Shown here in pieces: positions 15,297-51,071 of a stretch of 64,000 nt of DNA. Numbering within the stretch: position 1 is the first letter of the stretch; every line of letters begins with the position of its first letter. Under the pieces are notes generated by a model. It was not told the origin of the DNA, ran no database searches, and saw only the letters and a program-made list of their open reading frames with translations. The stretch lies in NCBI RefSeq assembly GCF_054482525.1, contig NZ_CM137006.1; one strand, written 5' to 3'. The translations under genes were made by a program, and so were the position numbers.

Positions 15297-16722
15297 TAAT
15301 GCCGATCAGTTAAGGATCAGTTGACCGATCCAGTGGCTGTGTAAGAATCCGGAAACGCTCACTTGTTTCCGGATTTTTTTATGCACATTGGACAGGCTCT
15401 TGATCTGGTATCCCGTTACGATTCTCTGCGTAACCCACTGACTTCTCTGGGGGATTACCTCGACCCCGAACTCATCTCTCGTTGCCTTGCCGAATCAGGT
15501 ACTGTAACGCTACGCAAGCGCCGTCTTCCCCTCGAAATGATGGTCTGGTGTATTGTTGGCATGGCGCTTGAGCGTAAAGAACCTCTTCACCAGATTGTGA
15601 ATCGCCTGGACATCATGCTGCCGGGCAATCGCCCCTTCGTTGCCCCCAGTGCCGTTATTCAGGCCCGCCAGCGCCTGGGAAGTGAGGCTGTCCGCCGCGT
15701 GTTCACGAAAACAGCGCAGCTCTGGCATAACGCCACGCCGCATCCGCACTGGTGCGGCCTGACCCTGCTGGCCATCGATGGTGTGTTCTGGCGCACACCG
15801 GATACACTAGAGAACGATGCAGCCTTCCCCCGCCAGACACATGCCGGGAACCCGGCGCTCTACCCGCAGGTCAAAATGGTCTGCCAGATGGAACTGACCA
15901 GCCATCTGCTGACGGCTGCAGCCTTCGGCACGATGAAGAACAGCGAAAATGAGCTTGCTGAGCAACTTATAGAACAAACCGGCGATAACACTCTGACGTT
16001 AATGGATAAAGGTTATTACTCACTGGGACTGTTAAATGCCTGGAGCCTGGCGGGAGAACACCGCCACTGGATGATACCTCTCAGAAAGGGAGCGCAATAT
16101 GAAGAGATCAGAAAACTGGGTAAAGGCGATCATCTGGTGAAGCTGAAAACCAGCCCGCAGGCACGAAAAAAGTGGCCGGGACTGGGAAATGAAGTGACAG
16201 CCCGCCTGCTGACCGTGACGCGCAAAGGAAAAGTCTGCCATCTGCTGACGTCGATGACGGACGCCATGCGCTTCCCCGGAGGAGAAATGGCGGATCTGTA
16301 CAGTCATCGCTGGGAAATCGAACTGGGATACAGGGAGATAAAACAGACGATGCAACTGAGCAGGCTGACGCTGAGAAGTAAAAAACCGGAGCTTGTGGAG
16401 CAAGAGCTGTGGGGTGTCTTACTGGCTTATAATCTGGTGAGATATCAGATGATTAAAATGGCGGAACATCTGAAAGGTTACTGGCCGAATCAACTGAGTT
16501 TCTCAGAATCATGCGGAATGGTGATGAGAATGCTGATGACATTGCAGGGCGCTTCACCGGGACGTATACCGGAGCTGATGCGCGATCTTGCAAGTATGGG
16601 ACAACTTGTGAAATTACCGACAAGAAGGGAAAGGGCCTTCCCGAGAGTGGTAAAGGAGAGGCCCTGGAAATACCCCACAGCCCCGAAAAAGAGCCAGTCA
16701 GTTGCTTAACTGACTGGCATTA
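15297..16722 (+). mobile_element. IS4 insertion sequence, 1426 bp, intact
   Basis: Terminal inverted repeats TAATGCCGATCAGTTAAGG (15297-) and CCTTAACTGACTGGCATTA (-16722); 11-bp direct repeat CAATCATCAGG at 15286-15296 and 16723-16733. Confidence 0.9.
15363..16709 (+). CDS. IS4 transposase
   Basis: 448-aa ORF inside IS4; true start may be the internal MHIGQALDL Met. Confidence 0.9.
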
Positions 16723-17325: not shown

Positions 17326-18168
17326 TCAGGCTGAGAGCACAGAAGGAAAGTACCTGGCTATTATATCGTTAATTCTGTCAATCAGTTCCAGCCTTTTGAA
17401 AGTGATGTGTGCAGATCCCTTCTTAAAGTATTTAATGATGAACATCTCGTCTTCATAGCGCTCTTTACCCTGAACGGACTGGATGTGACCATCCAGACGA
17501 ATAGTGATGTTTTCCCGGTTGTCGGGGATCGGTTTGCCGCTGAACAGATGTAGCATTCTTTCCAGGTCGACGAGTCGGTCAGTCTGTTGCCCGGTGATAA
17601 GATGAAACCCCCACCGGTCCCACCTCACCAGGTTGTTGACGATAATTTTACTGCCAAATTTGCAGGGGCAATTGGTTTTGTAATTCCAGCTCAGTCCCCT
17701 GAAGACGTTGATCACCCCTCGCTCAAACACCTCATCCTTATTCTGGTGTAGTTGTTCAAATGTGCTCAGAATGTTCGCTTCACTGATTTCCGGAAAATTA
17801 TCGTGCTCCAGTGACCGGTACCATGTATCACGGGCCTGTGCATCCATTAAGGAAAGCATCCCTGAACGTTGCATCAGGTCACGCCAGATTTCGCGATCGA
17901 GATTGCGTGTGATAGCTTTCATTGCGGTTTCCGGTTTCTCCATCAGCCAGCAGCCGCAGCGAAAATCCTGTTTCATGGCCCAGTCCGGGGCGGCTTTACC
18001 GCCAATACTTTCTGTCATTGCTGAGATTTCAGCCAGTTGCCGGATAAGTGTGTCGATTTGCAGCAGTGTACTTTTTCGTACAGCCAGAATGTGGCGGATA
18101 CTGGTTGAGCAGATAACGTCCGTATGCCCGGTGACCACTTCCGGATGGGAGATTGTGATGTTTGACAT
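17326..18168 (-). CDS. Conserved island protein, probably DUF4942 family (CP4-44-like module, copy 1)
   Basis: 280 aa; paralog of 45243-46109; occupies the module-terminal position after the YeeW-like genes. Confidence 0.6.
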   Translation of the reverse strand: MSNITISHPEVVTGHTDVICSTSIRHILAVRKSTLLQIDTLIRQLAEISAMTESIGGKAAPDWAMKQDFRCGCWLMEKPETAMKAITRNLDREIWRDLMQRSGMLSLMDAQARDTWYRSLEHDNFPEISEANILSTFEQLHQNKDEVFERGVINVFRGLSWNYKTNCPCKFGSKIIVNNLVRWDRWGFHLITGQQTDRLVDLERMLHLFSGKPIPDNRENITIRLDGHIQSVQGKERYEDEMFIIKYFKKGSAHITFKRLELIDRINDIIARYFPSVLSA

Positions 18169-18252
18169 TATCGGTTTCCCTTTTGGTTTATAAACGAAAA
18201 CGCCAGCCGTATTCAGGCTGGCGTCAGGGTAATGAAGCGTGGTGAGTGATAT

Positions 18253-18450
18253 TCACCGGTTCTGGTGCAGAAGCTGCAGATGACGCAGGGTACGGACATC
18301 CTCTCTGGCCTGTTCGATACAGGGCAACAGTGCTGCCGAATCCGTTCTATCCTCATCGTTGTCAAAGATAATTCCCGATTCGCAGTCGATATTGTCCTGC
18401 AGCCACGCAATGAGGATATCCAGCGCTGTTTCCGTGGTTAATGATTTCAT
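18253..18450 (-). CDS. Small conserved protein downstream of yeeW-like gene (copy 1)
   Basis: MKSLTTETALDILIAWLQDNIDCESGIIFDNDEDR...; start placed at ATG 18450 behind AGGAACAAC; paralog at 46194-46391. Confidence 0.5.
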   Translation of the reverse strand: MKSLTTETALDILIAWLQDNIDCESGIIFDNDEDRTDSAALLPCIEQAREDVRTLRHLQLLHQNR

Positions 18451-18461
18451 GTTGTTCCTGG

Positions 18462-18950
18462 TTATCAGTCGAAAGTGGGCAGGTCCGGCAGACATTCAGC
18501 GCTGGCATCCAGATGAATGAGACTGACGCCATAACGTTGGATGAGTGTGACAAACAGACGACGGAACGTTTTTGACAGCCCCAGGCGTTTAAGCCGCAGA
18601 ACCGGATATGATCACGCATCGGTACGTAACAGATATCCGCTACCTGTGAAATGAATCCATTCTGATTCGCCGAAGTCACTGGTCTGGTGTGACAGTGAGT
18701 ACAACCAGGCGTTGTCCGTTTCCGTGATATGTGCGGTACTGCAGCGTATGCCGGCAAGGGTTGCAAATGGCGGTGGTGTGCAGGTTGACTGTTGGTCGGA
18801 TTCCTCTGCCACACGGAGTGAATAATCGTTTTCAGCGACGTTATTAATCAGTTCAGTGAGATTAACACCATCGACGTCAACGACAATTCGCCCCATGTTC
18901 AGTGCCTGCACATTAATGCTGTCGGCTTCCAGCATCAGGGAAAGTTTCAT
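18462..18950 (-). pseudogene. YeeW-like protein, truncated by a TGA nonsense codon at codon 113 (copy 1)
   Basis: Copy 2 (46403-46894) reads through TGG (W) where copy 1 has TGA; downstream frame in copy 1 still encodes SYPVLRLKRLG... Confidence 0.55.
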
Positions 18951-19321
18951 CGTTTCTCCGGATGCTTACCCAGGGTAATGTTATTTACCGTTCTGTAATT
19001 GTCGCGGGTCATCAGGCCGGTCGCCCTGCGAGCCCGGAGGATATCGATGCTGTTTATTAACTGAGAGCGGGTACAGGCACTGAATTCCGGCTGGTCGGTA
19101 CGCACCAGTGCGTATTTTTCAACAAGAAAGTTCACTGCATCGCACAGTGAAATGCCAGCTTCAATATGCTGCTCAATCACACGTTCATCGGCGAACGGTG
19201 TGTCATTCAGCGTAAGGCCGTAATGCTGGTCCAGCAACCGGGACAGCAGTGTCTGCCAGATGGTGACGGGAGACGGGCAGCGCGATGCCTCCCGTACGTG
19301 TGTGTCGGGTAATGTTTTCAT
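18947..19321 (-). CDS. cbtA: CbtA/YeeV-family toxin
   Basis: 124 aa, [56 protein letters not shown]... Confidence 0.85.
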
Positions 19322-19410
19322 ACTGAAGGTTTTCCTGATATGCAGAGATGAAAAATGGAAAAGTGGCGTGGTGAAAGCACCAGGCCGGAGCAGAAGGTTA
19401 TTCCGGTGGT

Positions 19411-19791
19411 TTACTTTTTCGTTTCGGATGTTGGATAAACAGCCAGATAAACGTAACCACAGCTGCCGAGGGTGTCGGCTTCGCAGGTCAGCCCTTTCGC
19501 ATACAGTGTGACGGTATGCTGATGGCGGGGATTCAGTTCACCGCCGGTGAGCATGAGTTCCAGTTGTTTCATCAGCAGCGGAAAGGCCTGGTCCAGGTGG
19601 TACGCATCCGCGTCGCTGAACAGGCCTCTGATACCGGCGCGGTCGGCAAGGTAATGCAACCGGTTACCCTCCTGCACCAGACGTGCCCCGAAACAGGGCG
19701 TCACGGTGCAGGGTAGCCCCCCACCAGGGGCGGTTGTTGTTGTCGGGATGCGTTGTCCCGGGGAGTGTGTCTGACACGATAAAATCCTCAC
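19411..19791 (-). CDS. cbeA: CbeA/YeeU-family antitoxin, N-terminal frameshift relative to copy 2
   Basis: Residues after ~25 match YeeU ([31 protein letters not shown]...); copy 1 has a 6-C run at 19727-19732 where copy 2 has 5. Confidence 0.7.
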
Positions 19792-19856
19792 AGAAAATCG
19801 GTTAAGAATGGTCCGGTGGTGGCGATAATTCTGCTCATCTGAATGCCCTTCCAGAC

Positions 19857-20078
19857 TCAGTTCAGGGTGACGCTCATCAGCCGGACATACGGGCCAAAAC
19901 TGTCCTTACGGCGTTCAGCAAACACAGCCAGCACACCGGGAATATCCTGCACTTCACGACCGGTATACGTCTCAGCACTGCCGTGCCAGCGGTACTTACC
20001 GGTACAGAACGGAAAAAGACGGGATGCAGGATGCTGTTGGTGAATACGCATGGCTTCACCACGGGTGATAATTTTCAT
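19857..20078 (-). CDS. yeeT: DUF987/YeeT-like protein
   Basis: 73 aa, MKIITRGEAMRIHQQHPASRLFPFCTGKYRWHG...; conserved position between radC-like and cbeA. Confidence 0.7.
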   Translation of the reverse strand: MKIITRGEAMRIHQQHPASRLFPFCTGKYRWHGSAETYTGREVQDIPGVLAVFAERRKDSFGPYVRLMSVTLN

Positions 20079-20146
20079 GATGGGATACCTCTGAAGACAG
20101 AAGATAAAAGTGAAAACAAGTGTGATGTGGTTGTGACGGTGACGGG

Positions 20147-20638
20147 TTAAAGCAGACCGTGTTCGGCAAAGGAGAAAACCTGGTTGCCACCGACTATCAG
20201 ATGGTCCGGCACCCGGATATCCACCAGGCCCAGTGCCTGTACCAGACGTTCCGTGATAAGGCGGTCTGCCTTACTGGGTGTGACTTCACCGGACGGGTGA
20301 TTGTGCGCCAGCACCACGGCAGCGGCATTGTGGTACAGGGCGCGTTTAATCACTTCCCGGGGATGGACTTCCGTGCGGTTGATGGTGCCGGTGAAGAGGG
20401 TTTCACCGGCAATCAGCTGATTCTGGTTATTCAGATACAGTACCCGGAACTCTTCACGCTCCAGTCCCGCCATGTTCAGAATCAGCCATTCCCGTGCCGC
20501 ACGGGTGGAGGTGAAGGCCACGCCGGGTTCATGAAGATGGCGTTCCAGGGTTTTCAGGGCCCGCAGAATGAGACTGCGCTCGCCGGGCGTCATCTCTCCT
20601 GGCAGAAAGGAAAGTTGTTGCATTGTGCTTCTCTCCAT
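20147..20638 (-). CDS. yeeS: RadC-like JAB-domain protein (YeeS/YkfG/YfjY family)
   Basis: 163 aa; JAMM-like motif HNHPSGEVTPSKAD. Confidence 0.85.
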   Translation of the reverse strand: MERSTMQQLSFLPGEMTPGERSLILRALKTLERHLHEPGVAFTSTRAAREWLILNMAGLEREEFRVLYLNNQNQLIAGETLFTGTINRTEVHPREVIKRALYHNAAAVVLAHNHPSGEVTPSKADRLITERLVQALGLVDIRVPDHLIVGGNQVFSFAEHGLL

Positions 20639-21124
20639 TCAGTCGATGATGCGCATAATGGCGCTGCATTCCGGATGCTGCAGGGCGTAATCCCGCAGCC
20701 GGTAATAATGGACCGTCATGGCATAACACTCCGTACGACAGGCATGATGACTGTACGTCATCAGACAGGCAGCAATGCCGGCGGCTTCCGGGCTCATTTC
20801 AGCGCGGTTACCGTTCATGACATTGAACAGTACCCATGTTTCGTCATCATCGTCATCCGGTTCGGGTGCCATAAATGCCCCTCCGTTATTCAGTGTGTAC
20901 AGATTCCAGATACCACCGCAGTAGTCTTCACACAGACGGTCCATCCAGCCGAAGACACGGGGCTCCAGGGTCACCCACTGTGGAATGAGGCCAAAGTGCT
21001 GTGGCCAGAAGCTGATGCACTGTTCATCAGGGACGGGAGTGGCAACCAGTTGAGACTGGTTATTCCCTGATGCAGTAGTTACGGAAACAGAAGGTGTGGT
21101 GGAATTATGTGAAACGGTTGTCAT
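20639..21124 (-). CDS. Antirestriction protein (KlcA/ArdB-like, YfjX/YafX family)
   Basis: Start placed at ATG 21124 (MTTVSHNS...) behind AAGGA; acidic DDDDDE stretch; paralog at 48551-49036. Confidence 0.8.
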   Translation of the reverse strand: MTTVSHNSTTPSVSVTTASGNNQSQLVATPVPDEQCISFWPQHFGLIPQWVTLEPRVFGWMDRLCEDYCGGIWNLYTLNNGGAFMAPEPDDDDDETWVLFNVMNGNRAEMSPEAAGIAACLMTYSHHACRTECYAMTVHYYRLRDYALQHPECSAIMRIID

Positions 21125-21214
21125 GATATTATTCCTTATAAAAAGCAAATGAATGAAGAAGGCTCGGGGGCAGGGACAGACGTGAGTCAGGACGGCGCTT
21201 TCAGGTAAACGGTA

Positions 21215-22033
21215 TCAGCGCATGTTCTCCAGCAGCGTTTCCGCCATCACCCATAATGCGCGATTGAGCTTAATATCGGTGTCGATGCTGTGAATGGCCC
21301 GGGTATGGATACGTTTTCCTCTGGCACTGCGGCCGGAAATTCCGCCTTTCAGCATATTCTCCTGGATGGTCTGATATGCGCTCCACAGGTCCTTACCGTA
21401 ATCCTCCCTGCGTCGTGGCGTAAGAATGTCAGCGGTGGTGACGGGCTGATGTTCGTCACCATAACGGTAAGTCAGGGCCGCCTGTGCCAGCGCCTGGCGT
21501 GCCGGTGGCGGCAGGACCAGCGACTGCATGGCATCACGCTTCTCCTCTATCCGGTCAAACACGCCCACCACCTCGTAAGCCCCTTCGATAACTTTCTCCA
21601 CTACATTTCCCCGGTGTGGAACACGCACTTCCCCCAGAGACTGGCCACAGACGCACCCGTTCTGGCAGACGAACCTGAAGTAACCCGGCAGCATCTGGTA
21701 GCTGGAGGTACCGTCATGAGAGTTGAGCAGAATAATTTCAGGGACATGTTCTCCGTTTATCTCTCCGGCCCGCCGCAGACGCAGCATGTGTTTGGTATAT
21801 TCCCGGCGGCTCTGGTCGCGCACACGGGTCTGGCAGGCGAAGAACGGCTGAAAGCCTTCCCGCTGCAGATTTTCCAGGACGGTAATGGTGGGAATGTACG
21901 CATACCGTTCACTGCGGGAGGTGTGCCGGTCTTCCCCAAAAATACTGGGTACATGGCGTATCAGTTCTTCATGTGTCAGCGGACGGTCACGGCGTATCTG
22001 GTTTACATGACCAAAACGACTTGCTAATCGCAT
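21215..22033 (-). CDS. DUF932-family protein (YfjQ/YafZ-like)
   Basis: 272 aa; conserved module position; paralog at 49128-49946. Confidence 0.7.
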   Translation of the reverse strand: MRLASRFGHVNQIRRDRPLTHEELIRHVPSIFGEDRHTSRSERYAYIPTITVLENLQREGFQPFFACQTRVRDQSRREYTKHMLRLRRAGEINGEHVPEIILLNSHDGTSSYQMLPGYFRFVCQNGCVCGQSLGEVRVPHRGNVVEKVIEGAYEVVGVFDRIEEKRDAMQSLVLPPPARQALAQAALTYRYGDEHQPVTTADILTPRRREDYGKDLWSAYQTIQENMLKGGISGRSARGKRIHTRAIHSIDTDIKLNRALWVMAETLLENMR

Positions 22034-22123
22034 GATTTGCTCCTTATGAATGAGTTAGCGGTATAAATGAAAAAGCCGCGTCTTCTGGAGAAGACGCGGC
22101 CTGATGGATCAAGTGAATGACGT

Positions 22124-22357
22124 TTATTGCCTGAGAATTCCCTCACTGGCGAGATACGGATTTAGCTGTTTTCCGGCATCAGGTTCAAAATTCCAGCACC
22201 GCCAGCGTAGCTGCCCTTCAGCATTGCGAATAACCAACCGGAAATGTGTTCCCTGGTCATCTTCAATAAGCACATTAAGGTAAGCCGTTGTGACGGCAAG
22301 TGCCTGGTTGCGTGAGAAAGGGCCTTCGGGCAATAAACGTGATGTACAACCCGGCAT
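22124..22357 (-). CDS. DUF905-family small protein
   Basis: 77 aa; paralog at 50037-50246 (…[15 protein letters not shown]…). Confidence 0.6.
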
Positions 22358-22427
22358 ATCTGTTGCTCCCTGTAAGTAAAAGGCCCCGGTAATGATGACC
22401 GGGGCCTGAAGGGGAGTGACCTGATTA

Positions 22428-25274
22428 TCAGAAAGTCACGTTCAGTGTGGCCTGACCGTTATAACCTTCAGCGCTGCTGCCGCTGACACTGTGGGCATAA
22501 CCGGCCTGAACGCCCAGGGTGATATTTTCCCGGACACGGGCTTCCAGTCCGGCCTGCAGGTCCAGTGACGTGCCATTCTGGGACGGTGAGAACGTCATGT
22601 TACTGCCGGCTGCGGCTGTACCCATGCTCATGTCTCCCCGGGAGCTGAAGGTGCGGATAACAGAAGGCTGTACCCACCAGTTCACCGGCAGTTCACTCAC
22701 GCTGTGTTTGGCACTGTCGCGCAGGGTGTCACGGGATGAGGTGCCTTCGCCAAAGGTCATATCGTTGTGGCTGCCCAGACGGAAACCGGCACGCACATGT
22801 TGTGCACTGCCATGCCCGAACTTCACATAACCGGCGTTATCCTGACCGTCATCCAGGGAGAGCCCCTGCCAGGTGTACTGCAGTTGTGGCTCCAGCATCA
22901 GGTTGTCAGTGATACTGAAGGGCAGACCGGTTTCCAGTGAGCCCAGCCAGCCCCAGCCCCGGGCGCGGAAGTCGTTATTGTCCGATGACGCTTTCATGCT
23001 GTGGCGGGTTCCCTGTGCCACAATGTCAGCCCACAGGCCGGAGGATGTGTGTACCAGATTCAGGTATCCGCCCAGACTGCCGGCATCATCCCGGACCGTG
23101 CCGGCGCGGGAGCCGTCATCATCCTTAACATCAACGGAAGAATGGCCTGCAGCACCATACACCCCTGTCGTCAGAGACATACCGGCAACCTCTGTTCTGA
23201 GCAGGTCACCCTCCAGACGGACGAAGCCATAGCTGCCGCTGCTTTCCGGCGTGGCCCCACGGGCAATACCGCCGTTGTTATCGTGCCCGAGATGACCGCC
23301 CTGAATGCTGAGACGGACGCTGTTATTTTCACCGTTTACACCGGTCTGATGGCTGCGGGAGCCTGCCAGAATCCGGTCATAGTCCATTGCCTGTGTCAGC
23401 ATGGAGGCATACAGGGGGACTTCAGCACGATAAGCATTTTCACTGCGCAGGTACCAGTCTTCATCGCTGTCACGGTTCAGGGTGTAGTTAAAGGCGCCGG
23501 CCTGAAGCGGGCGGCTCAGGGCAAACGCACCTTCTTCTGTGGTGGCACCATTCTGTGCATCCACAACCCGGATACCCTGTCCGGTGGTTGCCACCCCGAG
23601 GTTACTGTTTCCGACATTTGTGAACGCAAGCCAGGTTTTGCCGGTTGCCTGGCCACCATTAATCACCAGCTGGTCAGAGGCATTGCTGCCATCAAGGCGA
23701 ACACGCATATTGATGGTGCCCCCCTGACCGGTGAGGTTACTGGTGGTCAGTTTATGGAACGTTACCGGGGAGTCGCCTTTTGCAACAGCACGGCTCAGCG
23801 CGGCATCCGGTGTCGTCTGATTATCAAAGTGAATCTCTCCTGCGTTAACAATATCGCCGGTACTGACCACATCACCATTCAGTACCATGCTGGCGCCTTT
23901 ACTGAGCTGTGTTCTGCCACTCAGACTTCCCCCGGCAGCCAGCGTCAGTGTTCCACGATGTCCGACAGTGGTGTTGCCTGCCTGTCCCCCGGCATTAACC
24001 GTAAAGCTGCCGCCATTTTCCAGTAGCAGGCCGCTGGCCTGCCCGGATATGCCATCAATACTGAACTTACCGCTGGCATTGGTCCCCTCAACAGTGGCAC
24101 CACTGTCTGCTATCAGGGCACCACCGGATGTCATGGTGACATCTGTTGCCTTACCACCGGCAGACACTGCCAGGGTACCGCCGTCATCCACCAGTGTTTT
24201 CTGCGCTGAATGGCCCTCCAGTACATCCAGGCGACCGCCGGACTCCAGAACAACGCCGTCAGCCTTACCGTTTTCCACCGTGAAATTGCCCAGACGGTTG
24301 CTGCCGGTGACGGTTGCCGCCGTACTGGTGACCAGTGCGCCGCCCTGCGTCAGGGTGACATTCGTGGCTGTACCACCGGCGTTCACCTGCAGTTTGCCTT
24401 TCTGGTTAACGGTGGTGAAATCCGCCAGACCACCTTCCTTGATAATCTGCCAGCCGTCACTGTTAACAACAGTGCCAGACGCCGTACCGCCGTTGTGCAC
24501 ATACTGGTACCCCCCATTCAGCGTGGTATCCAGTGCGTGACCATGTACAGTCTGGTCGCCGCCGGCATAAACCACAGTGGTATTTGCCGTTCCTTCAGCA
24601 GCCACAATCTGACGACCATTTTTATTGATGGTGGTGCGTACGGCATCTCCGTAGACGGTCTGCCCGGTATCACCATTTTCCGCATCCGGTCCTCCTTCCG
24701 CGCCAGTATTCACAACCGTGTCGGTTGCCATTGCGCCGGATTTGACGGCCTGCCAGCCCTTCTCATTAATGACGGTACCCGTTGCAATCCCGCCTTCATG
24801 TACCCACTGCTCACCGCCGTTCAGAGTGGTGTTCACTGCCTGCCCCTGAAGGCTCTGTCCGCCTCCGGCCCTGATAACCGTGTCTGAAACGCTTCCTCCG
24901 GCATTCACTCTCTGAAGACCACCACCGGTGACAGTAGTGTTGTTGGCGATACCGCCATTTTGTATCCATTGCCCGCCGGTATTGGCCTCGTTATCCGGCC
25001 CATACTCCAGACCGGTACTGATGGTCATTCCGTTGGCTGTACCGAAGACAATCTGGTTGTCATGATTTTCCAGTGCTCCGCCGCTCACGGTTTCTCCCGC
25101 CTGTACAACCGTGTCAGCAGCCAGTACCGGGAGTGATGTGACAGCAGCAAGAGACAGCGCAACCGCCACACCGGCGCGTTTTCCCCGTGAGCGGGCCAGT
25201 TCGGAGGCCACCACCAGGGTGCCCGTAATGTGATTCCATACCAGCCTGTAGCTGGTGTTCAGATGTCGTTTCAT
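22428..25274 (-). CDS. flu: Antigen 43 (Ag43/Flu) self-associating autotransporter adhesin
   Basis: Start at [18 protein letters not shown] (ATG 25274 behind AAGGAAAA); extended signal peptide, repetitive passenger, C-terminal beta-barrel ending ...[12 protein letters not shown]. Track ORF starts 75 nt upstream. Confidence 0.9.
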
Positions 25275-25487
25275 CAGCTTTTCCTTACAGAGGGTGAATA
25301 AAAAAGCCGGTACCCACAAATGTGGATACCGGCAGGTACAAAACAGCATGGTCAGATAAAGTGGTTTTTCCCGGACATAAATGCTTCCCCTCTCTCATCC
25401 GCCTGAGAAGTATCAGTCCGTTGTGTGCAATTCCGTTCTGCATGATGAAGAGATTCAGCTGCCTTTTCGCAGGCCATTAACCACTAT

Positions 25488-25531
25488 AAACGATCGATAT
25501 AAACGATCGATATCTGTTTTATCGATCGTTT
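25488..25531 (-). promoter_or_regulatory. agn43 phase-variation switch: three GATC sites (Dam/OxyR region)
   Basis: GATC at 25492, 25505 and 25524 inside AAACGATCGATATAAACGATCGATATCTGTTTTATCGATCG, about 220-250 bp upstream of the Ag43 start. Confidence 0.6.
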
Positions 25532-25646
25532 TATTCTATTAATAACAAGGCAGCCACGCAAGAGAAACAGGAGGAGTATGAGGGGTTTGTGTCATGTTTT
25601 CAGTTGGTTAACGCAATGTAATCAGGCATTTCCTCTGGCAGAGTGT

Positions 25647-26519
25647 TCAGAAGAAAATCCAGTTCCATACAGCGCGGGCAACAGAGACCACCGAGTCACG
25701 GACGGCACGCAGAACCGTGCGTGCAACAGAGGCAATACAGACGCTCTCCGCTGTGTCAAATATCCGGTCCACCGCACCGGTAAACTGTTCACGGGCCTGA
25801 GACCGGACAGATTCCGTGCGCAGCTCGTCCTGCAGGCGGGTCATCAGGGGACTGGCGGCATGGTCGGGAAGCGCTGTCATGAGCGCACTGACCAGCGTAT
25901 CCAGTTCCCAGCCGGTGCGGGCCGATACGGCCACAACCGGATGTACGGGCCGGAACAGACGGAATACCGCCTCCGTTTTTTCGCGAATATTCTGTGCCTG
26001 TGCGGGAGAAGGCTGAATACCGGCCATATCCCATTCATGGCAGGGCTCCGTTTTGTCGGCCTGCGTCACCACAAACAGCACCTGCTGATGTCCCCGGTGC
26101 AGGATGTGTCGCCAGAAATACTCATCCACAGACAGGGCGCGGTCATCGGCTTTAATCAGCCACAGCACCAGGTCCAGTTCGGGCAGAATGTCACGGTACA
26201 GGGCTTCATACTCTGCATCTCTGTCCCGGCTCTCGCCCACCCCGGGCAGGTCAGTGATAACCATGCTGTGACCGTGGCCACTCAGACGGAAGCGCCGCAC
26301 TTCCCGGGTGCCGGCGTGAACATCACTGACCGGGGTGACCTCCCCCTGAAACAGTGCATTACAGAGTGAGGATTTACCGGCCCCGCTTTTACCCATAATG
26401 CCAATCACGGGTTCGTGACTGGTGAGTTTGCGCAGATGTTCCAGGATGTGACGGGAAAGTGAGTAAGGCAGGGAGGAGAGCGGTTTTTCAATTGCCTCAA
26501 TGGCATCAGACGGATTCAT
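25647..26519 (-). CDS. yeeP: YeeP/YfjP/YkfA-family GTPase (copy 1)
   Basis: P-loop GIMGKSGAGKSSLCNALF and DLPG motif; start placed at ATG 26519 (the longer track ORF begins with GTG and no SD). Confidence 0.8.
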   Translation of the reverse strand: MNPSDAIEAIEKPLSSLPYSLSRHILEHLRKLTSHEPVIGIMGKSGAGKSSLCNALFQGEVTPVSDVHAGTREVRRFRLSGHGHSMVITDLPGVGESRDRDAEYEALYRDILPELDLVLWLIKADDRALSVDEYFWRHILHRGHQQVLFVVTQADKTEPCHEWDMAGIQPSPAQAQNIREKTEAVFRLFRPVHPVVAVSARTGWELDTLVSALMTALPDHAASPLMTRLQDELRTESVRSQAREQFTGAVDRIFDTAESVCIASVARTVLRAVRDSVVSVARAVWNWIFF

Positions 26520-26748
26520 ACATGTATTCCCGGTGAAAAAAGACAAAACCCCGCACACCGGAAAGATGGCGGGGGGATTCACGGAGATAATATCTGCCTG
26601 AAATTATTTGGAATGCAGGTATATGTGGCTGATTTGTATCAGCTAATGAGTACAGGTCTGAATCTAATCTGACAGTCCGCTCTGTGCCAGGAGCGGACAT
26701 TGTTTTCCAACTATTACCTAAGCCTGCGAACCATCTCATCTTCACCCC

Positions 26749-27636
26749 TTAAATTCTCAATGTATCGATAACCGCTCGTAGGGCGGGTGACACATTGCGG
26801 TGCGGATAATAGATATATGAACCCTCCAGGCGTTGGCTGTAGCATTGCAAAACTCTGATTAGCGCCCCCTGTTCTATATCATCAGACACTAATTCCTCCG
26901 GAACATAGGCCAGCCCCAGACCTAGCCTTGCGGCTTTGGCTTCCATATAACTGTCAGCAAAGGCCCATTGTCCCTGAGGCTGATGGGTGATCTTTTTACC
27001 GTCCTGATTGAGTTCCCAGACATACAGACTGCCGTCGCCGAACTGGTAAGCGATGCAGGGATGACCTACTAAATCGGTGGGGGTTTGTGGAAATCCGTAG
27101 CGCTGAAAGTGCCCGGGCGTGCCGACAACAGCCATCTCCATATCGGGCGAAATGCGCACCGCAACCATACCGCTATCCACTTCCGAGCCCAGACGTATAC
27201 CGGCATCGAAGCGCTCAGTAATAATATCGACAAACCGGCTTTCGCTGATGAGCTCCAGCCGAATATCCGGGTATCGTTGTTTAAACACCGCCAGCTTCGG
27301 CAGCAGCACTTTATCAATGGCGTGCTGGCTCGCATTAATTCGGACCGTACCCGATGGTGTATGGCGATAATGGGCCAGTGTGGCAAGCCCCATATCTAAG
27401 GCGTCAAATCCAGATTCGACGTTTCGATAGAGTAACTCGCCGGCATGGGTGAGCGATAACTTGCGCGTGGTGCGTACCAGAAGCTGCACGCCCAGTCGCT
27501 CTTCCAGCTCGCGCACTGCACGGCTAATTCCTGATTGCGCCAGGCCAAGCCTCTGCGCGGCGGCGGTAAAACTCCCTTCTCGCACGACCTGCATAAACAG
27601 ATAGAGATCGTTATAGTTTTCCCGTTTCGCCATCAT
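26749..27636 (-). CDS. LysR-family transcriptional regulator
   Basis: 295 aa; N-terminal HTH FTAAAQRLGLAQSGISRAVRELEERLGVQLL plus LysR substrate-binding domain. Confidence 0.85.
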   Translation of the reverse strand: MMAKRENYNDLYLFMQVVREGSFTAAAQRLGLAQSGISRAVRELEERLGVQLLVRTTRKLSLTHAGELLYRNVESGFDALDMGLATLAHYRHTPSGTVRINASQHAIDKVLLPKLAVFKQRYPDIRLELISESRFVDIITERFDAGIRLGSEVDSGMVAVRISPDMEMAVVGTPGHFQRYGFPQTPTDLVGHPCIAYQFGDGSLYVWELNQDGKKITHQPQGQWAFADSYMEAKAARLGLGLAYVPEELVSDDIEQGALIRVLQCYSQRLEGSYIYYPHRNVSPALRAVIDTLRI

Positions 27637-45242: not shown

Positions 45243-46109
45243 TTATGCCTTGCGGCTTTTGTTCACTGTGCTTGCCAGGGCTTCCGGGTAGTGTCTGGCA
45301 ATAATATCATTAAGCCTGTCAACCAGCTCTGGTTTCCTGAACGTGATGTGCGCGGAGCCCTTCTTAAAGTATCTGATGCTGAACATCTCATCTTCATAGT
45401 CCTCTTTACCCTGAACAGACTGGATGTGATCATCCAGATGAATGGTGATGTTTTCCCGGTTGTCGGGGATCGGTTTGCCGCTGAACAGGTGCAGCATTCT
45501 TTCCAGATCGGCAAGTCGATCGGCCTGTTGTCCGGTGATAAGATGAAACCCCCACCGGTCCCACCTCACCAGATTGTTGACGATAATTTTACTGCCAAAT
45601 TTGCAGGGTGAATTGGTTTTGTAATTCCAGCTCAGTCCTCTGAAAACGTTGAGCACCCCTCGCTCAAACACTTCATCTTTGTTCTGGTGCAGTTGTTCAA
45701 ACGTGCTCAGGATATTTGCTTCGCTGATTTCCGGAAAATTATCGTACTCCAGTGACCGGTACCATGTATCACGGGCTTGTGCATCCATTAATGACAGCAT
45801 CCCTGAACGTTGCATCAGATCACGCCAGATTTCGCGGTCAAGGTTGCGGGTGATGGCTTTCATTGCGGTTTCCGGTTTTTCCATCAGCCAGCAACCGCAG
45901 CGAAAATCCTGTTTCATGGCCCAGTCCAGTGCAGTTTTACCTCCGATGCTTTCCGTCAGCACCGAGATTTCTGCCAGTTGCCGGATAAGTGTGTCGATTT
46001 GCAGCAGCGCACTCTTTCGTACAGCCAGAATGTGGCGGATGCTGGTTGAGCCGATAACGTCCGTATGCCCGTTGACCACTTCCGGACGGGGGGCTGTGAT
46101 TTCAGACAT
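45243..46109 (-). CDS. Conserved island protein, probably DUF4942 family (copy 2)
   Basis: 288 aa; paralog of 17326-18168. Confidence 0.6.
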   Translation of the reverse strand: MSEITAPRPEVVNGHTDVIGSTSIRHILAVRKSALLQIDTLIRQLAEISVLTESIGGKTALDWAMKQDFRCGCWLMEKPETAMKAITRNLDREIWRDLMQRSGMLSLMDAQARDTWYRSLEYDNFPEISEANILSTFEQLHQNKDEVFERGVLNVFRGLSWNYKTNSPCKFGSKIIVNNLVRWDRWGFHLITGQQADRLADLERMLHLFSGKPIPDNRENITIHLDDHIQSVQGKEDYEDEMFSIRYFKKGSAHITFRKPELVDRLNDIIARHYPEALASTVNKSRKA

Positions 46110-46193
46110 AATCGATATTCCTTTTTGCAGATAAATGAAAACGCCAGCCCTGTTCAGGCTGGCGTCAGTGGAATGAAGTCTGGTGAGTAAGAC

Positions 46194-46391
46194 TCACCGG
46201 TTCTGTTGCAGAAGCTGCAACTGGCGCAGGATACGGATATCCTCCCTGGCCTGTTCGATACAGGGCAACAGTGCTGCCGAATCCGTTCTATCCTCATCGT
46301 TGTCAAAGATAATTCCCGATTCGCAGTCGATATTGTCCTGTAGCCACGCAATCAGAATATCCAGTGCGGTTTCCGTGGTTAATGATTTCAT
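46194..46391 (-). CDS. Small conserved protein downstream of yeeW-like gene (copy 2)
   Basis: Paralog of 18253-18450; start at ATG 46391, 11 nt after the yeeW-like stop. Confidence 0.5.
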   Translation of the reverse strand: MKSLTTETALDILIAWLQDNIDCESGIIFDNDEDRTDSAALLPCIEQAREDIRILRQLQLLQQNR

Positions 46392-46402
46392 GTTGTTCCT
46401 GG

Positions 46403-46894
46403 TTACCAGTCGAAAGTGGGCAGGTCCGGCAGACATTCAGCGCTGGCATCCAGATGAATGAGACTGACGCCATAACGTCGGGTAAGTGTGACAACCAGAC
46501 GACGGAACGTTTTTGACAGGCCCAGGCGCTTAAGCCGCAGAACCGGGTATGACCACGCATCGGTACGTAACAGATATCCGCTACCTGTGAAATGAATCCA
46601 TTCTGATTCGCCGGTGCCATTCGTCTGATGTGACAGCGAGTACAGCCAGGCGTTGTCCTTTGCCGTGATATGCGCGGTACTGCAGCGTATGCCGGTAAGG
46701 GCCGCCGCAGATGATGGCGTGCGCTCTGCTGATGTCCGGTCAGATTCATCAACAACACGAAGGGAGTAACCGTTATCGCAGACCACGTTAATCAGTTCAG
46801 CGAGAGTAACACCATCGACGTCAACGACAATGCGCCCCATGTTCAGTGCCTGCACGTTAATGCTGTCGGCTTCCAGCGTCAGGGCCAGTTTCAT
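46403..46894 (-). CDS. yeeW: YeeW-like protein, full length (copy 2)
   Basis: 163 aa; intact counterpart of the truncated copy at 18462-18950. Confidence 0.65.
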   Translation of the reverse strand: MKLALTLEADSINVQALNMGRIVVDVDGVTLAELINVVCDNGYSLRVVDESDRTSAERTPSSAAALTGIRCSTAHITAKDNAWLYSLSHQTNGTGESEWIHFTGSGYLLRTDAWSYPVLRLKRLGLSKTFRRLVVTLTRRYGVSLIHLDASAECLPDLPTFDW

Positions 46895-47268
46895 TGTTTC
46901 GCCCCCGGATGTTTACCCAGGGTAATGTTATTTACCGTTCTGTAATTGTCGCGGGCCATCAGGCCGGTTGCCCGGCGGGCCCGGAGGATATCAATACTGT
47001 TTATTAACTGAGAACGGGTACAGGCGCTGAATCCTGGCTGGTCGGTACGTACCAGTGCGTATTTTTCAACGAGAAAGTTCACCGCATCGCACAGTGAAAT
47101 GCCTGCCTCAATATGCTGCTCAATCACACGTTCATCAGCGAACGGTGTGTCATTCAGTGTGAGGCCGTAATGCTGGTCCAACAGTCGGGTGAGCAGTGTC
47201 TGCCAGATGGTGACGGGAGACGGGCAGCGCGATGCCTCCCGTACGTGTGTGTCAGGTAATGTTTTCAT
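46891..47268 (-). CDS. cbtA: CbtA/YeeV-family toxin (copy 2)
   Basis: Start at MKTLPDTHV (47268); the track ORF extends upstream to 47370. Confidence 0.85.
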   Translation of the reverse strand: MKTLPDTHVREASRCPSPVTIWQTLLTRLLDQHYGLTLNDTPFADERVIEQHIEAGISLCDAVNFLVEKYALVRTDQPGFSACTRSQLINSIDILRARRATGLMARDNYRTVNNITLGKHPGAKQ

Positions 47269-47314
47269 CTTAAGTTCTCTGTAACTGGTAGTGCTAAAGG
47301 TGAGATATTCGGGG

Positions 47315-47689
47315 TTATGAGGTGGTTGCGGGTGCCAGTGTCGGATAAACAGCCATATAAACGTAACCACAACTGCTGAGGGTATCGGCTTTGCAGGTCA
47401 GCCCTTTTGCATACAGCGTGACGGTATGCTGATGGCGGGGATTCAGTTCACCGCTGGTGAGCATGAGTTCCAGTTGTTTCATCAGCAGCGGAAAGGCCTG
47501 GTCCAGATGGTACGCATCCGCGTCGCTGAACCGGCCTCTGATACCGGCGCGGTCTGCAAGGTAATGCAACCGGTTACCCTCCTGCACCAGACGTGCCCCA
47601 AAACAGGGCGTCACGGTGCAGGGTAGCCCCCACCAGGGGCGGTCGTTGTTATCGTCGGGATGCGTTGTCCCGGGGAGAGTGTCTGACAC
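47315..47689 (-). CDS. cbeA: CbeA/YeeU-family antitoxin (copy 2, intact frame)
   Basis: 124 aa, [42 protein letters not shown]...; GTG start. Confidence 0.8.
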   Translation of the reverse strand: MSDTLPGTTHPDDNNDRPWWGLPCTVTPCFGARLVQEGNRLHYLADRAGIRGRFSDADAYHLDQAFPLLMKQLELMLTSGELNPRHQHTVTLYAKGLTCKADTLSSCGYVYMAVYPTLAPATTS

Positions 47690-47768
47690 GATAAAATCCT
47701 CACAGAAAATTGGTTAAGAATGGTCCGGTGGTGGCGATAATTCTGCTCTTCTGAATGCCCTTCCAGAC

Positions 47769-47990
47769 TCAGTTCAGGGTGACGCTCATCAGCCGGACAT
47801 ACGGGCCAAAACTGTCCTTACGGCGTTCAGCAAACACGGCCAGCACACCGGGAATATCCTGCACTTCACGACCGGTATACGCTTCAGCACTGCCGTGCCA
47901 GCGGTATTTGCCGGTACAGAACGGAAAAAGACGGGATGCCGGATGCTGACGGTGAATACGCATGGCTTCGCCACGGGTGATGATTTTCAT
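47769..47990 (-). CDS. yeeT: DUF987/YeeT-like protein (copy 2)
   Basis: 73 aa paralog. Confidence 0.7.
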   Translation of the reverse strand: MKIITRGEAMRIHRQHPASRLFPFCTGKYRWHGSAEAYTGREVQDIPGVLAVFAERRKDSFGPYVRLMSVTLN

Positions 47991-48058
47991 AGTGGGATAC
48001 CTCTGAAGACAGAAGATAAAAGTGAAAACAGGTGTGATATGGTTGTGGCGGTGACGGG

Positions 48059-48550
48059 TTAAAGCAGACCGTGTTCCGCAAAGGAGAAAACCTGGTTGCC
48101 ACCAACTATCAGATGGTCCGGTACCCGGATATCCACCAGGGCCAGTGCCTGTACCAGGCGTTCCGTGATAAGGCGATCTGCCTTACTGGGGGTGACTTCA
48201 CCGGACGGGTGGTTGTGTGCCAGTATCACGGCAGCGGCATTGTGGTACAGGGCACGTTTAATTACCTCCCGGGGATGGACTTCCGTGCGGTTGATGGTGC
48301 CTGTGAAGAGGGTTTCACCGGCAATCAGCTGATTCTGGTTGTTCAGATACAGTACCCGGAACTCTTCCCGCTCCAGTCCCGCCATGTTCAGAATCAGCCA
48401 TTCCCGTGCCGCATGCGTGGAGGTGAAGGCCACACCGGGTTCATGAAGATGGCGGTCCAGGGTTTTCAGGGCCCGCAGAATGAGGCTGCGCTCGCCGGGC
48501 GTCATCTCTCCGGGCAGAAAGGAAAGCTGTTGCATTGTGCTTCTCTCCAT
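48059..48550 (-). CDS. yeeS: RadC-like JAB-domain protein (copy 2)
   Basis: 163 aa; HNHPSGEVTPSKAD. Confidence 0.85.
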   Translation of the reverse strand: MERSTMQQLSFLPGEMTPGERSLILRALKTLDRHLHEPGVAFTSTHAAREWLILNMAGLEREEFRVLYLNNQNQLIAGETLFTGTINRTEVHPREVIKRALYHNAAAVILAHNHPSGEVTPSKADRLITERLVQALALVDIRVPDHLIVGGNQVFSFAEHGLL

Positions 48551-49036
48551 TCAGTCGATGATGCGCATAATGGCGTTGCATTCCGGATGCTGCAGGGCGT
48601 AATCCCGCAACCGATAATAATGGACCGTCATGGCATAATTCTCTGTACGACAGGCGTGATGACTGTACGCCATCAGACAGGCGGCAATGCCGGCGGCTTC
48701 CGGGCTCATTTCAGCGCGGTTGCCGTTCATGGCATTGAACAGTACCCATGTTTCGTCATCATCGTCATCCGGTTCGGGTACCATAAATGCCCCACCGTTG
48801 TTCAGGGTGTACAGATTCCAGATACCACCGCAGTAGTCTTCGCAAAGACGGTCCATCCAGCCGAAGACACGGGGCTCCAGGGTCACCCACTGTGGAATGA
48901 GGCCAAAATGTTGCGGCCAGAAACTGATGCGCTGTTCATCAGGGACGGGAGTGGCAACCAGTTGAGACTGGTTATTCCCTGGTGCAGTGGTTACGGAAAC
49001 AGAAGGCGTGGTGGAGCTATGCGAAAAGGTTGTCAT
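48551..49036 (-). CDS. Antirestriction protein (KlcA/ArdB-like, copy 2)
   Basis: 161 aa paralog. Confidence 0.8.
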   Translation of the reverse strand: MTTFSHSSTTPSVSVTTAPGNNQSQLVATPVPDEQRISFWPQHFGLIPQWVTLEPRVFGWMDRLCEDYCGGIWNLYTLNNGGAFMVPEPDDDDDETWVLFNAMNGNRAEMSPEAAGIAACLMAYSHHACRTENYAMTVHYYRLRDYALQHPECNAIMRIID

Positions 49037-49127
49037 GAGATGATTCCTTATAAAAAGTAAATGAATGGAAGAATGCCCGGGGACTGGTACAGACGTGAGT
49101 CAGGGTTGCACTTTCAGGGAAACAGCA

Positions 49128-49946: not shown

Positions 49947-50036
49947 GATTTGCTCCTTATGAATGAGTTAGCGATATAAATGAAAAAGCCGCGCCTCCCG
50001 GAGAAGACGCGGCCTGATGGATGAAATGAATGACGT

Positions 50037-50246
50037 TTATTGTCTGAGAAGCCCTTCACTGGCGAGCCACACATTAAGCTGTTTTCCGGCATCGGATTCA
50101 AAATTCCAGTACCGCCAGCGCAACTGACCTTCAGCATTACGGATAACCAGCCGGAAATGCGTTCCCTGGTCATCTTCAATAAGCACATTGCGGTAAGCTG
50201 TTGTGACGGCAACCGCCTGTTCGCGTGAGAAAGGGCCTTCGGGCAA
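50037..50246 (-). CDS. DUF905-family small protein (copy 2)
   Basis: 69 aa paralog. Confidence 0.6.
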
Positions 50247-50275
50247 TTAAACAGGGTGACAGTCCGACATACCGG

Positions 50276-50953: not shown

Positions 50954-51071
50954 GACTGACCTCTGAAATTAAAGAGCGTGTTATTGATAATGACAGACGG
51001 TATACGGCAGTGGTTACCGTAATCCGTTGTCGTGTAAAGGTATACGGTTGCCACGGGGGACTCCGGGGCGC

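What the first reader, a model, noticed from the sequence alone, without database searches (positions are those of the whole stretch)
25488..25531. agn43 Dam/OxyR phase-variation switch is intact
Three GATC sites (25492, 25505, 25524) in the characteristic AAACGATCGATATAAACGATCGATATCTGTTTTATCGATCG context upstream of the Ag43 gene. This predicts ON/OFF phase-variable expression of the adhesin. I did not find the same switch upstream of module 2.
Basis: partly seen in the sequence, partly recalled or inferred. Interest (0 to 1): 0.4.

Follow-up and report, generated by a model that had tools for sequence, protein, structure and literature searches.

The report
Intact Ag43 Dam/OxyR on-off switch
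This is the well-known methylation-based on/off switch in front of the E. coli Ag43 clumping adhesin gene, intact by sequence, so the finding is correct but ordinary.

Summary
GATC sites lie at 25492, 25505 and 25524, each in a CGATCG context. On the minus strand they sit 218-253 nt upstream of an intact 948-aa Ag43/Cah gene (25274..22428).

The region is homologous to the K-12 yeeP-isrC-flu interval. It keeps the -10 TAGAAT, the spacing of the three GATC sites, and two OxyR half-sites: ATAGAATAAAACGAT, 17 nt, ATCGTTTATATCGAT (16/20 to consensus). That spacing matches the validated P22 gtr OxyR/Dam sites. It also keeps the IsrC-type leader and its terminator.

In 120 metagenomic alleles anchored outside the core, each GATC is intact in 119. 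"Module 2" has no switch because it has no Ag43 gene.

The allele is not the K-12 version. It belongs to the commoner class (3180 versus 1256 of 5426 genomes), in which the central element between GATC-I and GATC-II is reverse-complemented. Five bases between GATC-II and GATC-III are hypervariable in this class. I could confirm only K-12-type alleles among those tested in the papers I could read.

Verdict: an already known system, sequence-intact, with phase variation predicted but not shown. Interest is low.

The parts
25556..25561 (-). -35 hexamer TTGCGT (3/6 to TTGACA), 17-nt spacer to the -10
   Evidence: Read. It aligns with K-12 TTGTCC. The strict promoter scan did not call it.
25533..25538 (-). 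-10 hexamer TAGAAT
   Evidence: Identical in 14 of the 15 alleles tabulated, including K-12, CFT073 agn43b and both Citrobacter species (GF4 has GATAGAAT upstream context but the same hexamer). AH50 has TAGGAT.
25525..25539 (-). OxyR half-site H0, ATAGAATAAAACGAT (8/10 to ATAGnTnnnAnCTAT). It overlaps the -10 hexamer and GATC-I.
   Evidence: Consensus taken from PMC2909390.
25524..25527 (-). GATC-I. Its G (25527) is the inferred transcription start.
   Evidence: The K-12 isrC annotation starts at the G of the homologous GATC. Intact in 119/120 metagenomic alleles.
25512..25520 (-). 9-nt central loop AAAACAGAT, between 11-bp inverted-repeat arms (25531..25521 and 25511..25501). It is reverse-complemented relative to K-12 (ATCTATTTT).
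   Evidence: DNA hairpin -14.8 kcal/mol, z -4.9. Orientation is fixed within the class, 120/120.
25505..25508 (-). GATC-II
   Evidence: Intact in 119/120.
25493..25507 (-). OxyR half-site Hb, ATCGTTTATATCGAT (8/10). GATC-II and GATC-III form its two ends.
   Evidence: It has the same G-ATCG-N7-CGAT-C design as P22 gtr half-sites A and C.
25499..25503 (-). Hypervariable pentanucleotide (TTTAT here) at the centre of Hb
   Evidence: 15 different pentanucleotides among 120 alleles, while the flanking bases are nearly invariant.
25492..25495 (-). GATC-III
   Evidence: Intact in 119/120.
25293..25529 (-). 5' leader, homologous to the IsrC / IS102 RNA
   Evidence: Rfam RF00124, 79.4 bits, model positions 1-206/206.
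25297..25333 (-). Intrinsic terminator in the leader: 12-bp stem GCCGGTATCCAC/GTGGGTACCGGC followed by a T-run
   Evidence: Conserved in both allele classes and across 117 metagenomic alleles.
25282..25286 (-). Shine-Dalgarno AAGGA, 7 nt before the ATG
   Evidence: Read.
22428..25274 (-). Ag43/Cah family autotransporter gene, 948 aa, intact
   Evidence: NCBIfam NF033177, positions 1-948/948, 1998.6 bits against a cut-off of 1200. Pfam ESPR, AIDA, AC_1 and Autotransporter domains.
25647..26519 (-). YeeP-like GTPase gene upstream of the switch
   Evidence: Pfam MMR_HSR1. Annotated as 'GTPase family protein' in AH50 and other genomes.

Best explanation
This is the regulatory region of an Ag43 (agn43/flu/cah family) autotransporter gene. 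It carries the canonical Dam/OxyR epigenetic switch.

Shown by sequence:
- A sigma-70 promoter: TTGCGT, 17 nt, TAGAAT.
- A start point inferred at the G of GATC-I (25527).
- A 47-bp OxyR site made of two half-sites 17 nt apart. H0 covers the -10 hexamer and GATC-I. Hb has GATC-II and GATC-III as its two ends.
- A 253-nt leader with a conserved intrinsic terminator (the IsrC-type RNA).
- An intact 948-aa Ag43 gene.

Inferred from the K-12 system:
- When the three GATC sites are unmethylated, OxyR binds across the -10 hexamer and the start site. This represses transcription and shields the GATC sites from Dam (OFF).
- When Dam methylates them, the N6-methyl groups fall on the outer consensus positions of the half-sites. 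OxyR cannot bind and the promoter fires (ON).
- After each replication the hemimethylated site is open to competition between Dam and OxyR. This gives heritable but reversible states.

The allele belongs to the commoner of two E. coli classes. It differs from K-12 by an inversion of the central element, which lies in the spacer between the two half-sites and so should not affect binding in this mode.
For: - Positions and context of the three GATC sites.
- Homology to K-12 yeeP-isrC-flu and to CFT073 agn43b.
- Rfam IS102/IsrC hit above the gathering score.
- H0-N17-Hb scores 16/20 in the window, K-12, CFT073b, O157 cah, O104:H4 and both Citrobacter species. Only two sites in the 64 kb reach 15/20 or more, and none of 30 resamples reached 16/20.
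- The experimentally validated P22 gtr OxyR sites have the same 17-nt spacing and the same GATC-ended half-site design.
- Each GATC is intact in 119 of 120 alleles sampled with anchors outside the core.
- The Ag43 ORF is full length.
- Published mechanism and OxyR repression of agn43 in K-12, CFT073, EC958 and 83972; ON/OFF clones with strain 042 flu promoter fusions: PMC13337833, PMC4807369, PMC9431211.
Against: - I could read no experiment on an allele I could confirm as this class. CFT073 agn43b is K-12-type. EC958 is probably K-12-type: its 228-nt 5'RACE distance matches the K-12-type allele of NCCP13983, not the 253 nt found here. Both strain 042 copies match the K-12 query.
- The compact (7-nt spacer) OxyR arrangement that covers all three GATC sites scores 14/20 in K-12-type alleles. 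In this class it is absent in that register (13/20 or less, in another register).
- The -35 is weak (3/6), and the consensus promoter scan found nothing.
- The exact 37-nt core was not found in 120 metagenomic alleles. No complete E. coli genome is 99% or more identical over the 111-nt switch region.
- dam and oxyR are not in the window.
- The leader terminator may limit read-through into agn43.
Confidence: 0.85

Rival explanations
1. The switch works, but with altered properties relative to K-12. Two features could change OxyR affinity or the binding register of oxidised OxyR: the inversion of the central element and this allele's rare core (A at +15, TTTAT at +25..+29). The ON/OFF bias, the switching rate or the response to oxidative stress would then differ.
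For: - The compact 7-nt-spacer site at -2..+35 (14/20) exists only in K-12-type alleles. In this class the best compact match shifts to -12..+25 (13/20) and leaves out GATC-III.
- The centre of Hb is hypervariable in this class: 15 pentanucleotides among 120 alleles.
- The switch/promoter is the most divergent 200 nt between the window and its 99.3%-identical relative AH50.
Against: - The extended 17-nt-spacer site is unchanged in every allele.
- The variable bases sit at 'n' positions of the consensus.
- No rate or affinity data exist for any of these variants in the papers I could read.
Confidence: 0.1
2. The switch is a sequence relic. The promoter or the leader no longer supports expression (weak -35, strong leader terminator), so Ag43 is silent or the transcript ends as an IsrC-like short RNA whatever the methylation state.
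For: - The strict promoter scan found no site.
- There is a 12-bp GC-rich terminator with a T-run 24 nt before the ATG.
- K-12 annotates the same leader as a separate small RNA, isrC.
Against: - The same -35, -10 and terminator are shared by thousands of alleles in front of intact genes, including K-12, where Ag43 is expressed.
- The ORF is intact.
- The terminator is conserved rather than decayed, which argues for a regulatory role.
Confidence: 0.03
3. The inverted repeats flanking the central loop form an active DNA-inversion switch that flips within a strain, and this, rather than methylation, sets the expression state.
For: - 11-bp perfect inverted repeats flank a 9-nt loop.
- The loop is found in both orientations among E. 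coli alleles.
Against: - Orientation is fixed with the flanking haplotype. All 120 alleles with the window-type leader have one orientation. All K-12-type alleles examined have the other.
- No invertase gene is adjacent.
- A 9-nt loop is far too short for site-specific recombinase synapsis (established knowledge).
Confidence: 0.01

Closest known systems
E. coli K-12 agn43 (flu) Dam/OxyR phase-variation switch (Henderson & Owen 1999; Haagmans & van der Woude 2000; Wallecha 2002; Waldron 2002; reviewed in PMC13337833)
   Same: - Genomic context: YeeP-like GTPase, then switch, then Ag43 gene.
- -10 TAGAAT.
- Three GATC sites at identical spacing.
- H0 and Hb half-sites identical in sequence.
- Leader terminator, ribosome-binding site and start of the ORF.

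   Different: - The element between GATC-I and GATC-II is reverse-complemented: AAAACAGAT versus ATCTATTTT in the loop.
- The sequence after GATC-III and much of the leader differ, and the leader is 253 nt versus 222 nt.
- The -35 is TTGCGT versus TTGTCC.
- The Ag43 protein is the 948-aa Cah-like form, not the 1039-aa K-12 form.
- No yeeR or irmA gene lies downstream.
Salmonella / phage P22 gtr OxyR/Dam switch (Broadbent 2010, PMC2909390)
   Same: - OxyR half-sites of the form G-ATCG-N7-CGAT-C, with two GATC sites 13 bp apart.
- 17-nt spacing between half-sites.
- Methylation blocks OxyR binding.

   Different: - gtr has three half-sites, which give two alternative OxyR positions (one activating, one repressing), and four GATC sites upstream of the promoter.
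- Here there are two half-sites, one OxyR position over the -10 hexamer and start site, and three GATC sites. OxyR acts as a repressor only.
IsrC / IS102 small RNA (Rfam RF00124)
   Same: Full-length match (model positions 1-206), including the 5' GATC hairpin and the 3' terminator.
   Different: The middle of the RNA has diverged and carries insertions of 41 and 63 nt against 35 and 35 in the model. This match is most simply the terminated agn43 leader rather than an independent gene.
Ag43/Cah regulatory regions of pathogenic E. coli (O157:H7 cah, O104:H4, UPEC agn43 alleles)
   Same: Same allele class as the window: inverted loop, the TTTATAGTGGTTAATGG leader and a 252-253-nt leader. O157 cah shares the TTTAT pentanucleotide.
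   Different: The window has A rather than G at +15 (1 of 120 alleles). Its combination of A at +15 with TTTAT was not seen elsewhere.

Membership tests
agn43-type Dam/OxyR epigenetic switch | Three GATC sites clustered at the promoter / start-site region, with K-12 spacing (19 and 13 nt start to start) | tested here: met
   25527, 25508 and 25495 on the gene strand. Spacing is identical to K-12, CFT073b and the other alleles.
agn43-type Dam/OxyR epigenetic switch | An OxyR-binding site that contains the GATC sites and overlaps the promoter | tested here: met
   By consensus only. H0 (8/10), 17 nt, Hb (8/10) at 25539..25493, overlapping the -10 hexamer and carrying all three GATC sites. The architecture matches the validated gtr sites. 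Physical binding was not tested.
agn43-type Dam/OxyR epigenetic switch | A sigma-70 promoter whose transcription start lies at GATC-I | tested here: inconclusive
   The -10 TAGAAT and the 17-nt spacer are conserved with K-12. The strict scan found no promoter because the -35 matches only 3/6. The start site is inferred from the K-12 isrC annotation, not measured.
agn43-type Dam/OxyR epigenetic switch | Controls an intact Ag43-family autotransporter gene | tested here: met
   NF033177, positions 1-948/948, 1998.6 bits. Pfam domains ESPR, AIDA, AC_1 and Autotransporter.
agn43-type Dam/OxyR epigenetic switch | GATC sites maintained by selection in related alleles | tested here: met
   Each GATC is intact in 119/120 alleles retrieved with anchors outside the 37-nt core, although five bases between GATC-II and GATC-III are hypervariable.
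agn43-type Dam/OxyR epigenetic switch | The host has Dam and OxyR | not testable with these tools
   Neither gene is in the window. The adjacent LysR-family gene is YafC-like, not OxyR. The nearest relative is E. coli AH50 (99.7% over 25 kb). Both genes are core E. coli genes (established knowledge).
agn43-type Dam/OxyR epigenetic switch | Heritable, reversible ON/OFF expression with alternative methylation states | not testable with these tools
   Requires methylation-aware sequencing or reporter assays.
gtr-type OxyR/Dam switch (two alternative OxyR positions) | Three half-sites at 17-nt spacing and two GATC pairs | tested here: not met
   Only one pair of half-sites at 17-nt spacing scores 15/20 or more here, whereas P22 gtr has two overlapping pairs.
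IsrC / IS102 RNA (RF00124) | Covariance-model score above the Rfam gathering threshold | tested here: met
   79.4 bits against 46, E 1.5e-11, full model length.
Invertible-DNA phase switch (fimS-like) | Both orientations present within a lineage, and a recombinase | tested here: not met
   One orientation in 120/120 alleles of this class. No recombinase gene next to the switch.

The most novel reading that the evidence does not exclude
The two E. coli switch classes and the hypervariable centre of half-site Hb may form a natural allelic series that tunes the switch.

- The inversion of the central element moves an ATAG-like OxyR contact element from the register of Hb (K-12-type: compact site at -2..+35, covering all three GATC sites) to the register of H0 (this class: compact site at -12..+25, omitting GATC-III). 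Oxidised OxyR might therefore bind differently to the two classes.
- The 15 pentanucleotide variants between GATC-II and GATC-III might set OxyR affinity, and with it the ON/OFF bias, copy by copy in strains that carry several Ag43 genes.
Probability: 0.2. Interest if true: 0.45.

Novelty: already known. Interest (0 to 1): 0.18.

Why it matters
It confirms that this island's Ag43 adhesin is probably expressed in only part of the population. That matters when interpreting aggregation, biofilm or vaccine-antigen data from the strain. A single colony can be all-ON or all-OFF, the pitfall described in PMC3764049.

The mechanism itself is textbook. The mild added value lies in three side observations:
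- The reference K-12 switch represents the minority allele class.
- The majority class has its central element inverted.
- The centre of one OxyR half-site is a polymorphism hot spot.

Each of these would be cheap to test for effects on switching rate.

Tried and rejected
- **Promoter scan:** the strict sigma-70 scan of 25200-25750 found no promoter. I located the promoter by homology instead.
- **Chance clustering:** bare GATC clustering is not significant. The claim therefore rests on the CGATCG context, the OxyR consensus and homology.
- **Second copy of the switch:** blastn with word size 7 found only self and palindromic self matches.
- **Local LysR regulator (26749-27636) as the binding protein:** it is YafC-like and far below the OxyR models. 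Rejected.
- **Active DNA inversion of the loop:** rejected, because orientation is fixed within each class.
- **Phage homologues of the switch:** none.
- **Primary papers:** Wallecha 2002, Kaminska 2010 and Fang 2012 are not held. The OxyR footprint coordinates for K-12 could not be read, so I derived the half-site assignment from the consensus and from the P22 gtr comparison.
- **Methylome and review papers searched for data on this allele class:** they contained only general statements.
- **EC958 allele:** not retrieved. Its class is inferred only from the 228-nt 5'RACE distance.
- **Citrobacter 154-aa protein as IrmA:** rejected (BLASTP E 0.88).

Full report
**Observation.** The quoted context is present. 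They are the only GATC sites between 22107 and 26989.

The neighbouring long ORF is on the minus strand. Its biological start is the ATG at 25274 ([15 protein letters not shown]...), preceded by AAGGA, and it ends at 22428. On the gene strand the sites are therefore GATC-I (25527..25524), GATC-II (25508..25505) and GATC-III (25495..25492), 253 to 218 nt upstream of the ATG.

Three GATC within 33 nt is not in itself unusual. It happens four times in the window, and a Markov null gives a mean of 1.4 per 64 kb. Three CGATCG within 33 nt, however, never occurred in 300 resamples. The real evidence is homology.

**What it is.**
- The ORF is a full-length Ag43/Cah autotransporter: NCBIfam NF033177, positions 1-948 of 948, 1998.6 bits against a cut-off of 1200. 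Pfam finds ESPR, AIDA, AC_1 and Autotransporter domains.
- Upstream lies a YeeP-like GTPase gene.
- Rfam places the IS102/IsrC RNA at 25529..25293 on the minus strand, at 79.4 bits against a gathering score of 46. In K-12 this is the annotated small RNA between yeeP and flu, and it starts at the G of the first GATC.
- Aligned to K-12, the window keeps the -10 TAGAAT, a -35 at 17-nt spacing (TTGCGT versus TTGTCC), all three GATC sites at identical spacing, the leader terminator, the ribosome-binding site and the start of the ORF.
- The window as a whole is 99.7% identical over 25 kb to E. coli AH50. There the same genes are annotated as GTPase, Ag43/Cah adhesin, DUF905, DUF932, antirestriction, RadC, YeeU/CbtA and so on.

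**The OxyR site.** I scored the published half-site consensus ATAGnTnnnAnCTAT (PMC2909390) along the region.
- Two half-sites score 8/10 each: H0, ATAGAATAAAACGAT (25539..25525), and Hb, ATCGTTTATATCGAT (25507..25493). They are separated by 17 nt.
- H0 overlaps the -10 hexamer and ends in GATC-I. Hb begins inside GATC-II and ends inside GATC-III. The methylatable adenines therefore sit at the outer consensus positions.
- This 16/20 arrangement is present in every allele I examined from both classes, and in two Citrobacter species.
- Only two positions in the 64-kb window reach 15/20 or more. None of 30 resamples reached 16/20.
- The P22 gtr regulatory region has the same 17-nt spacing: ATCGGTAACAACGAT, 17 nt, ATAGATAAAAACTAT, 17 nt, ATCGCTTGTATCGAT. 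It also has the same G-ATCG-N7-CGAT-C half-site design. OxyR(C199S) binding to that region, and its loss on Dam methylation, were shown experimentally.
- The authors of that paper describe the gtr spacing as consistent with the reduced form of OxyR.
- I could not read the K-12 footprinting papers. This assignment is therefore my inference.

**How it most likely works.** The mechanism below is taken from the K-12 system as summarised in PMC13337833 and PMC4872104.
- Unmethylated GATC sites allow OxyR to bind over the -10 hexamer and the start site. This represses transcription and shields the sites from Dam (OFF).
- Methylated sites exclude OxyR, and the promoter is active (ON).
- Replication creates a hemimethylated window in which Dam and OxyR compete again. 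The states are therefore heritable but reversible.
- The presence and arrangement of the elements is shown here. Binding, methylation states and bimodality are inferred.

The leader also carries a strong intrinsic terminator (25333..25297). It is conserved in both allele classes and across 117 metagenomic alleles. Part of the transcription probably ends as an IsrC-like RNA. I recall, without having been able to check it, a 2014 J Bacteriol paper from the van der Woude and deHaseth laboratories on control of expression at the agn43 leader.

**This is not the K-12 allele.**
- Searching 5426 complete E. coli genomes, the window's 111-nt switch region finds 3180 genomes (4411 places). None is 99% or more identical, and most are 90-95% identical. 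The K-12 region finds 1256 genomes.
- The two classes differ in the flanks. Most visibly, the segment between GATC-I and GATC-II is reverse-complemented. The window class reads CGATCGATAAAACAG[G/A]TATCGATCG; K-12-type alleles read CGATC[A/G]ATA[T/A/C]CTATTT[T/A]ATCGATCG.
- The segment is a 9-nt loop between perfect 11-bp inverted repeats.
- Orientation is fixed with the haplotype. All 120 metagenomic alleles with the window-type leader have the window orientation. All K-12-type alleles examined, and both Citrobacter alleles, have the other. It is an old difference, not an active flip.
- The inverted segment lies in the 17-nt spacer, so the H0-N17-Hb site is untouched.
- The compact 7-nt-spacer arrangement does change. 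It scores 14/20 at -2..+35 in K-12-type alleles only. In the window class the best compact match is 13/20 at -12..+25.

**Selection in this class.** I scanned metagenome contigs with a pattern anchored on the -10 region and on the leader, leaving the 37-nt core free.
- Among 120 alleles (25 core haplotypes), each GATC is intact in 119.
- Variation is concentrated in five bases between GATC-II and GATC-III (+25..+29; window 25503..25499), where there are 15 different pentanucleotides.
- The -35/-10 spacer is also variable.
- The window's own core was not seen. A at +15 is found in 1 of 120 alleles, and TTTAT as in K-12 and O157 cah in 4 of 120.
- The window and AH50 differ at 230 positions between 14001 and 48293. 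Nineteen of these fall in 25400-25599, inside a divergent patch at 24600-26400. AH50 still keeps all three GATC sites.

**Experimental support and its limits.**
- OxyR represses agn43 in CFT073, EC958 and 83972, with a 121-fold rise of agn43 mRNA in an EC958 oxyR mutant (PMC4807369).
- Both flu promoters of strain 042 gave ON and OFF clones (PMC9431211).
- However, CFT073 agn43b is K-12-type, and both 042 copies match the K-12 query.
- The EC958 start site, 228 nt from the ATG, equals the distance from GATC-I to the ATG in the K-12-type allele of NCCP13983, not the 253 nt found here.
- I found no readable experiment on an allele I could confirm as the window's class.

**Module 2.** The switch region has no second copy in the window. 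Module 1 (17354-22338) and module 2 (45295-50252) are 89-92% identical, and the homology stops at DUF905. In module 2 a 225-aa ORF with no Pfam match and a second GTPase gene take the place of Ag43.

**Verdict.** This is the already known agn43 Dam/OxyR switch, intact by every sequence criterion I could test. It sits in front of an intact gene and belongs to the majority allele class. Phase variation is a well-founded prediction (confidence about 0.85), not a demonstrated fact. Interest is low. The modest new leads are the class-level inversion, the hypervariable centre of Hb and the rewiring of the cassette in Citrobacter.

Noticed in passing
window 25508-25524 (loop 25512-25520): The segment between GATC-I and GATC-II is reverse-complemented relative to K-12. 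It is a 9-nt loop between 11-bp inverted repeats. Orientation is fixed within each of the two E. coli allele classes (3180 versus 1256 genomes).
   Followed up: yes
window 25499-25503: Five bases at the centre of OxyR half-site Hb are hypervariable: 15 pentanucleotides among 120 alleles, next to nearly invariant GATC sites. Four E. coli K-12-type alleles examined all have TTTAT. This could tune OxyR affinity, or it could reflect a mutable hairpin loop.
   Followed up: partly
window 22111-26988: This is a GATC desert apart from the three switch sites. The agn43 CDS has 0 GATC (7-10 expected) and K-12 flu also has 0 (8-11 expected); CFT073 agn43b has 2. The whole island is GATC-poor, so the excess depletion is modest.
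   Followed up: partly
L011 4551-5260 (Citrobacter braakii) and L012 850-1337 (C. amalonaticus): The complete switch cassette (-10 hexamer, three GATC sites, H0-N17-Hb, K-12 loop orientation) follows a YeeP-like GTPase gene. It lies about 120 nt upstream of a 154-aa ORF with an apparent N-terminal signal peptide and no Pfam or NCBIfam match, not upstream of an Ag43 gene. A 72-76%-identical E. coli homologue (7 of 5426 genomes) has no switch upstream.
   Followed up: partly
window 24600-26400: This is a divergent patch between the window and its nearest relative AH50, which is otherwise 99.3-99.7% identical. The peak is 19 differences in 25400-25599, at the switch and promoter. It suggests recombination or gene conversion between Ag43 copies.
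   Followed up: partly
window 25297-25333: A strong intrinsic terminator sits inside the agn43 leader, 24 nt before the ATG. It is conserved in both allele classes and marks the 3' end of the IsrC/IS102 RNA model.
   Followed up: partly
window 59371-59417: This is the only other 16/20 match to the extended OxyR consensus in the window (ATAGATTAAAGCTAA, 17 nt, TTTTCATATAT...). It lies in an AT-rich intergenic stretch with no GATC inside and is probably a chance match.
   Followed up: no
window 15304-15330: Three GATC sites within 27 nt lie 33-59 nt upstream of the IS4 transposase ORF (15363-16709), apparently at the left end of the element (TAATGCCGATCAGTTAAGGATCAGTTGACCGATCC). This may be a Dam-sensitive IS end.
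   Followed up: no
window 45243-51956: Module 2 is a second CP4-like backbone (GTPase ... DUF4942, ParDE, integrase), 89-92% identical to module 1. It has a 225-aa ORF with no Pfam match (50276-50953) where module 1 has Ag43.
   Followed up: partly
L010 (contig labelled Collinsella sp. MAG): This 1560-nt contig carries an E. coli window-type switch and leader that break off inside the terminator hairpin. It is most likely E. coli contamination of the bin, or a rearrangement junction.
   Followed up: no
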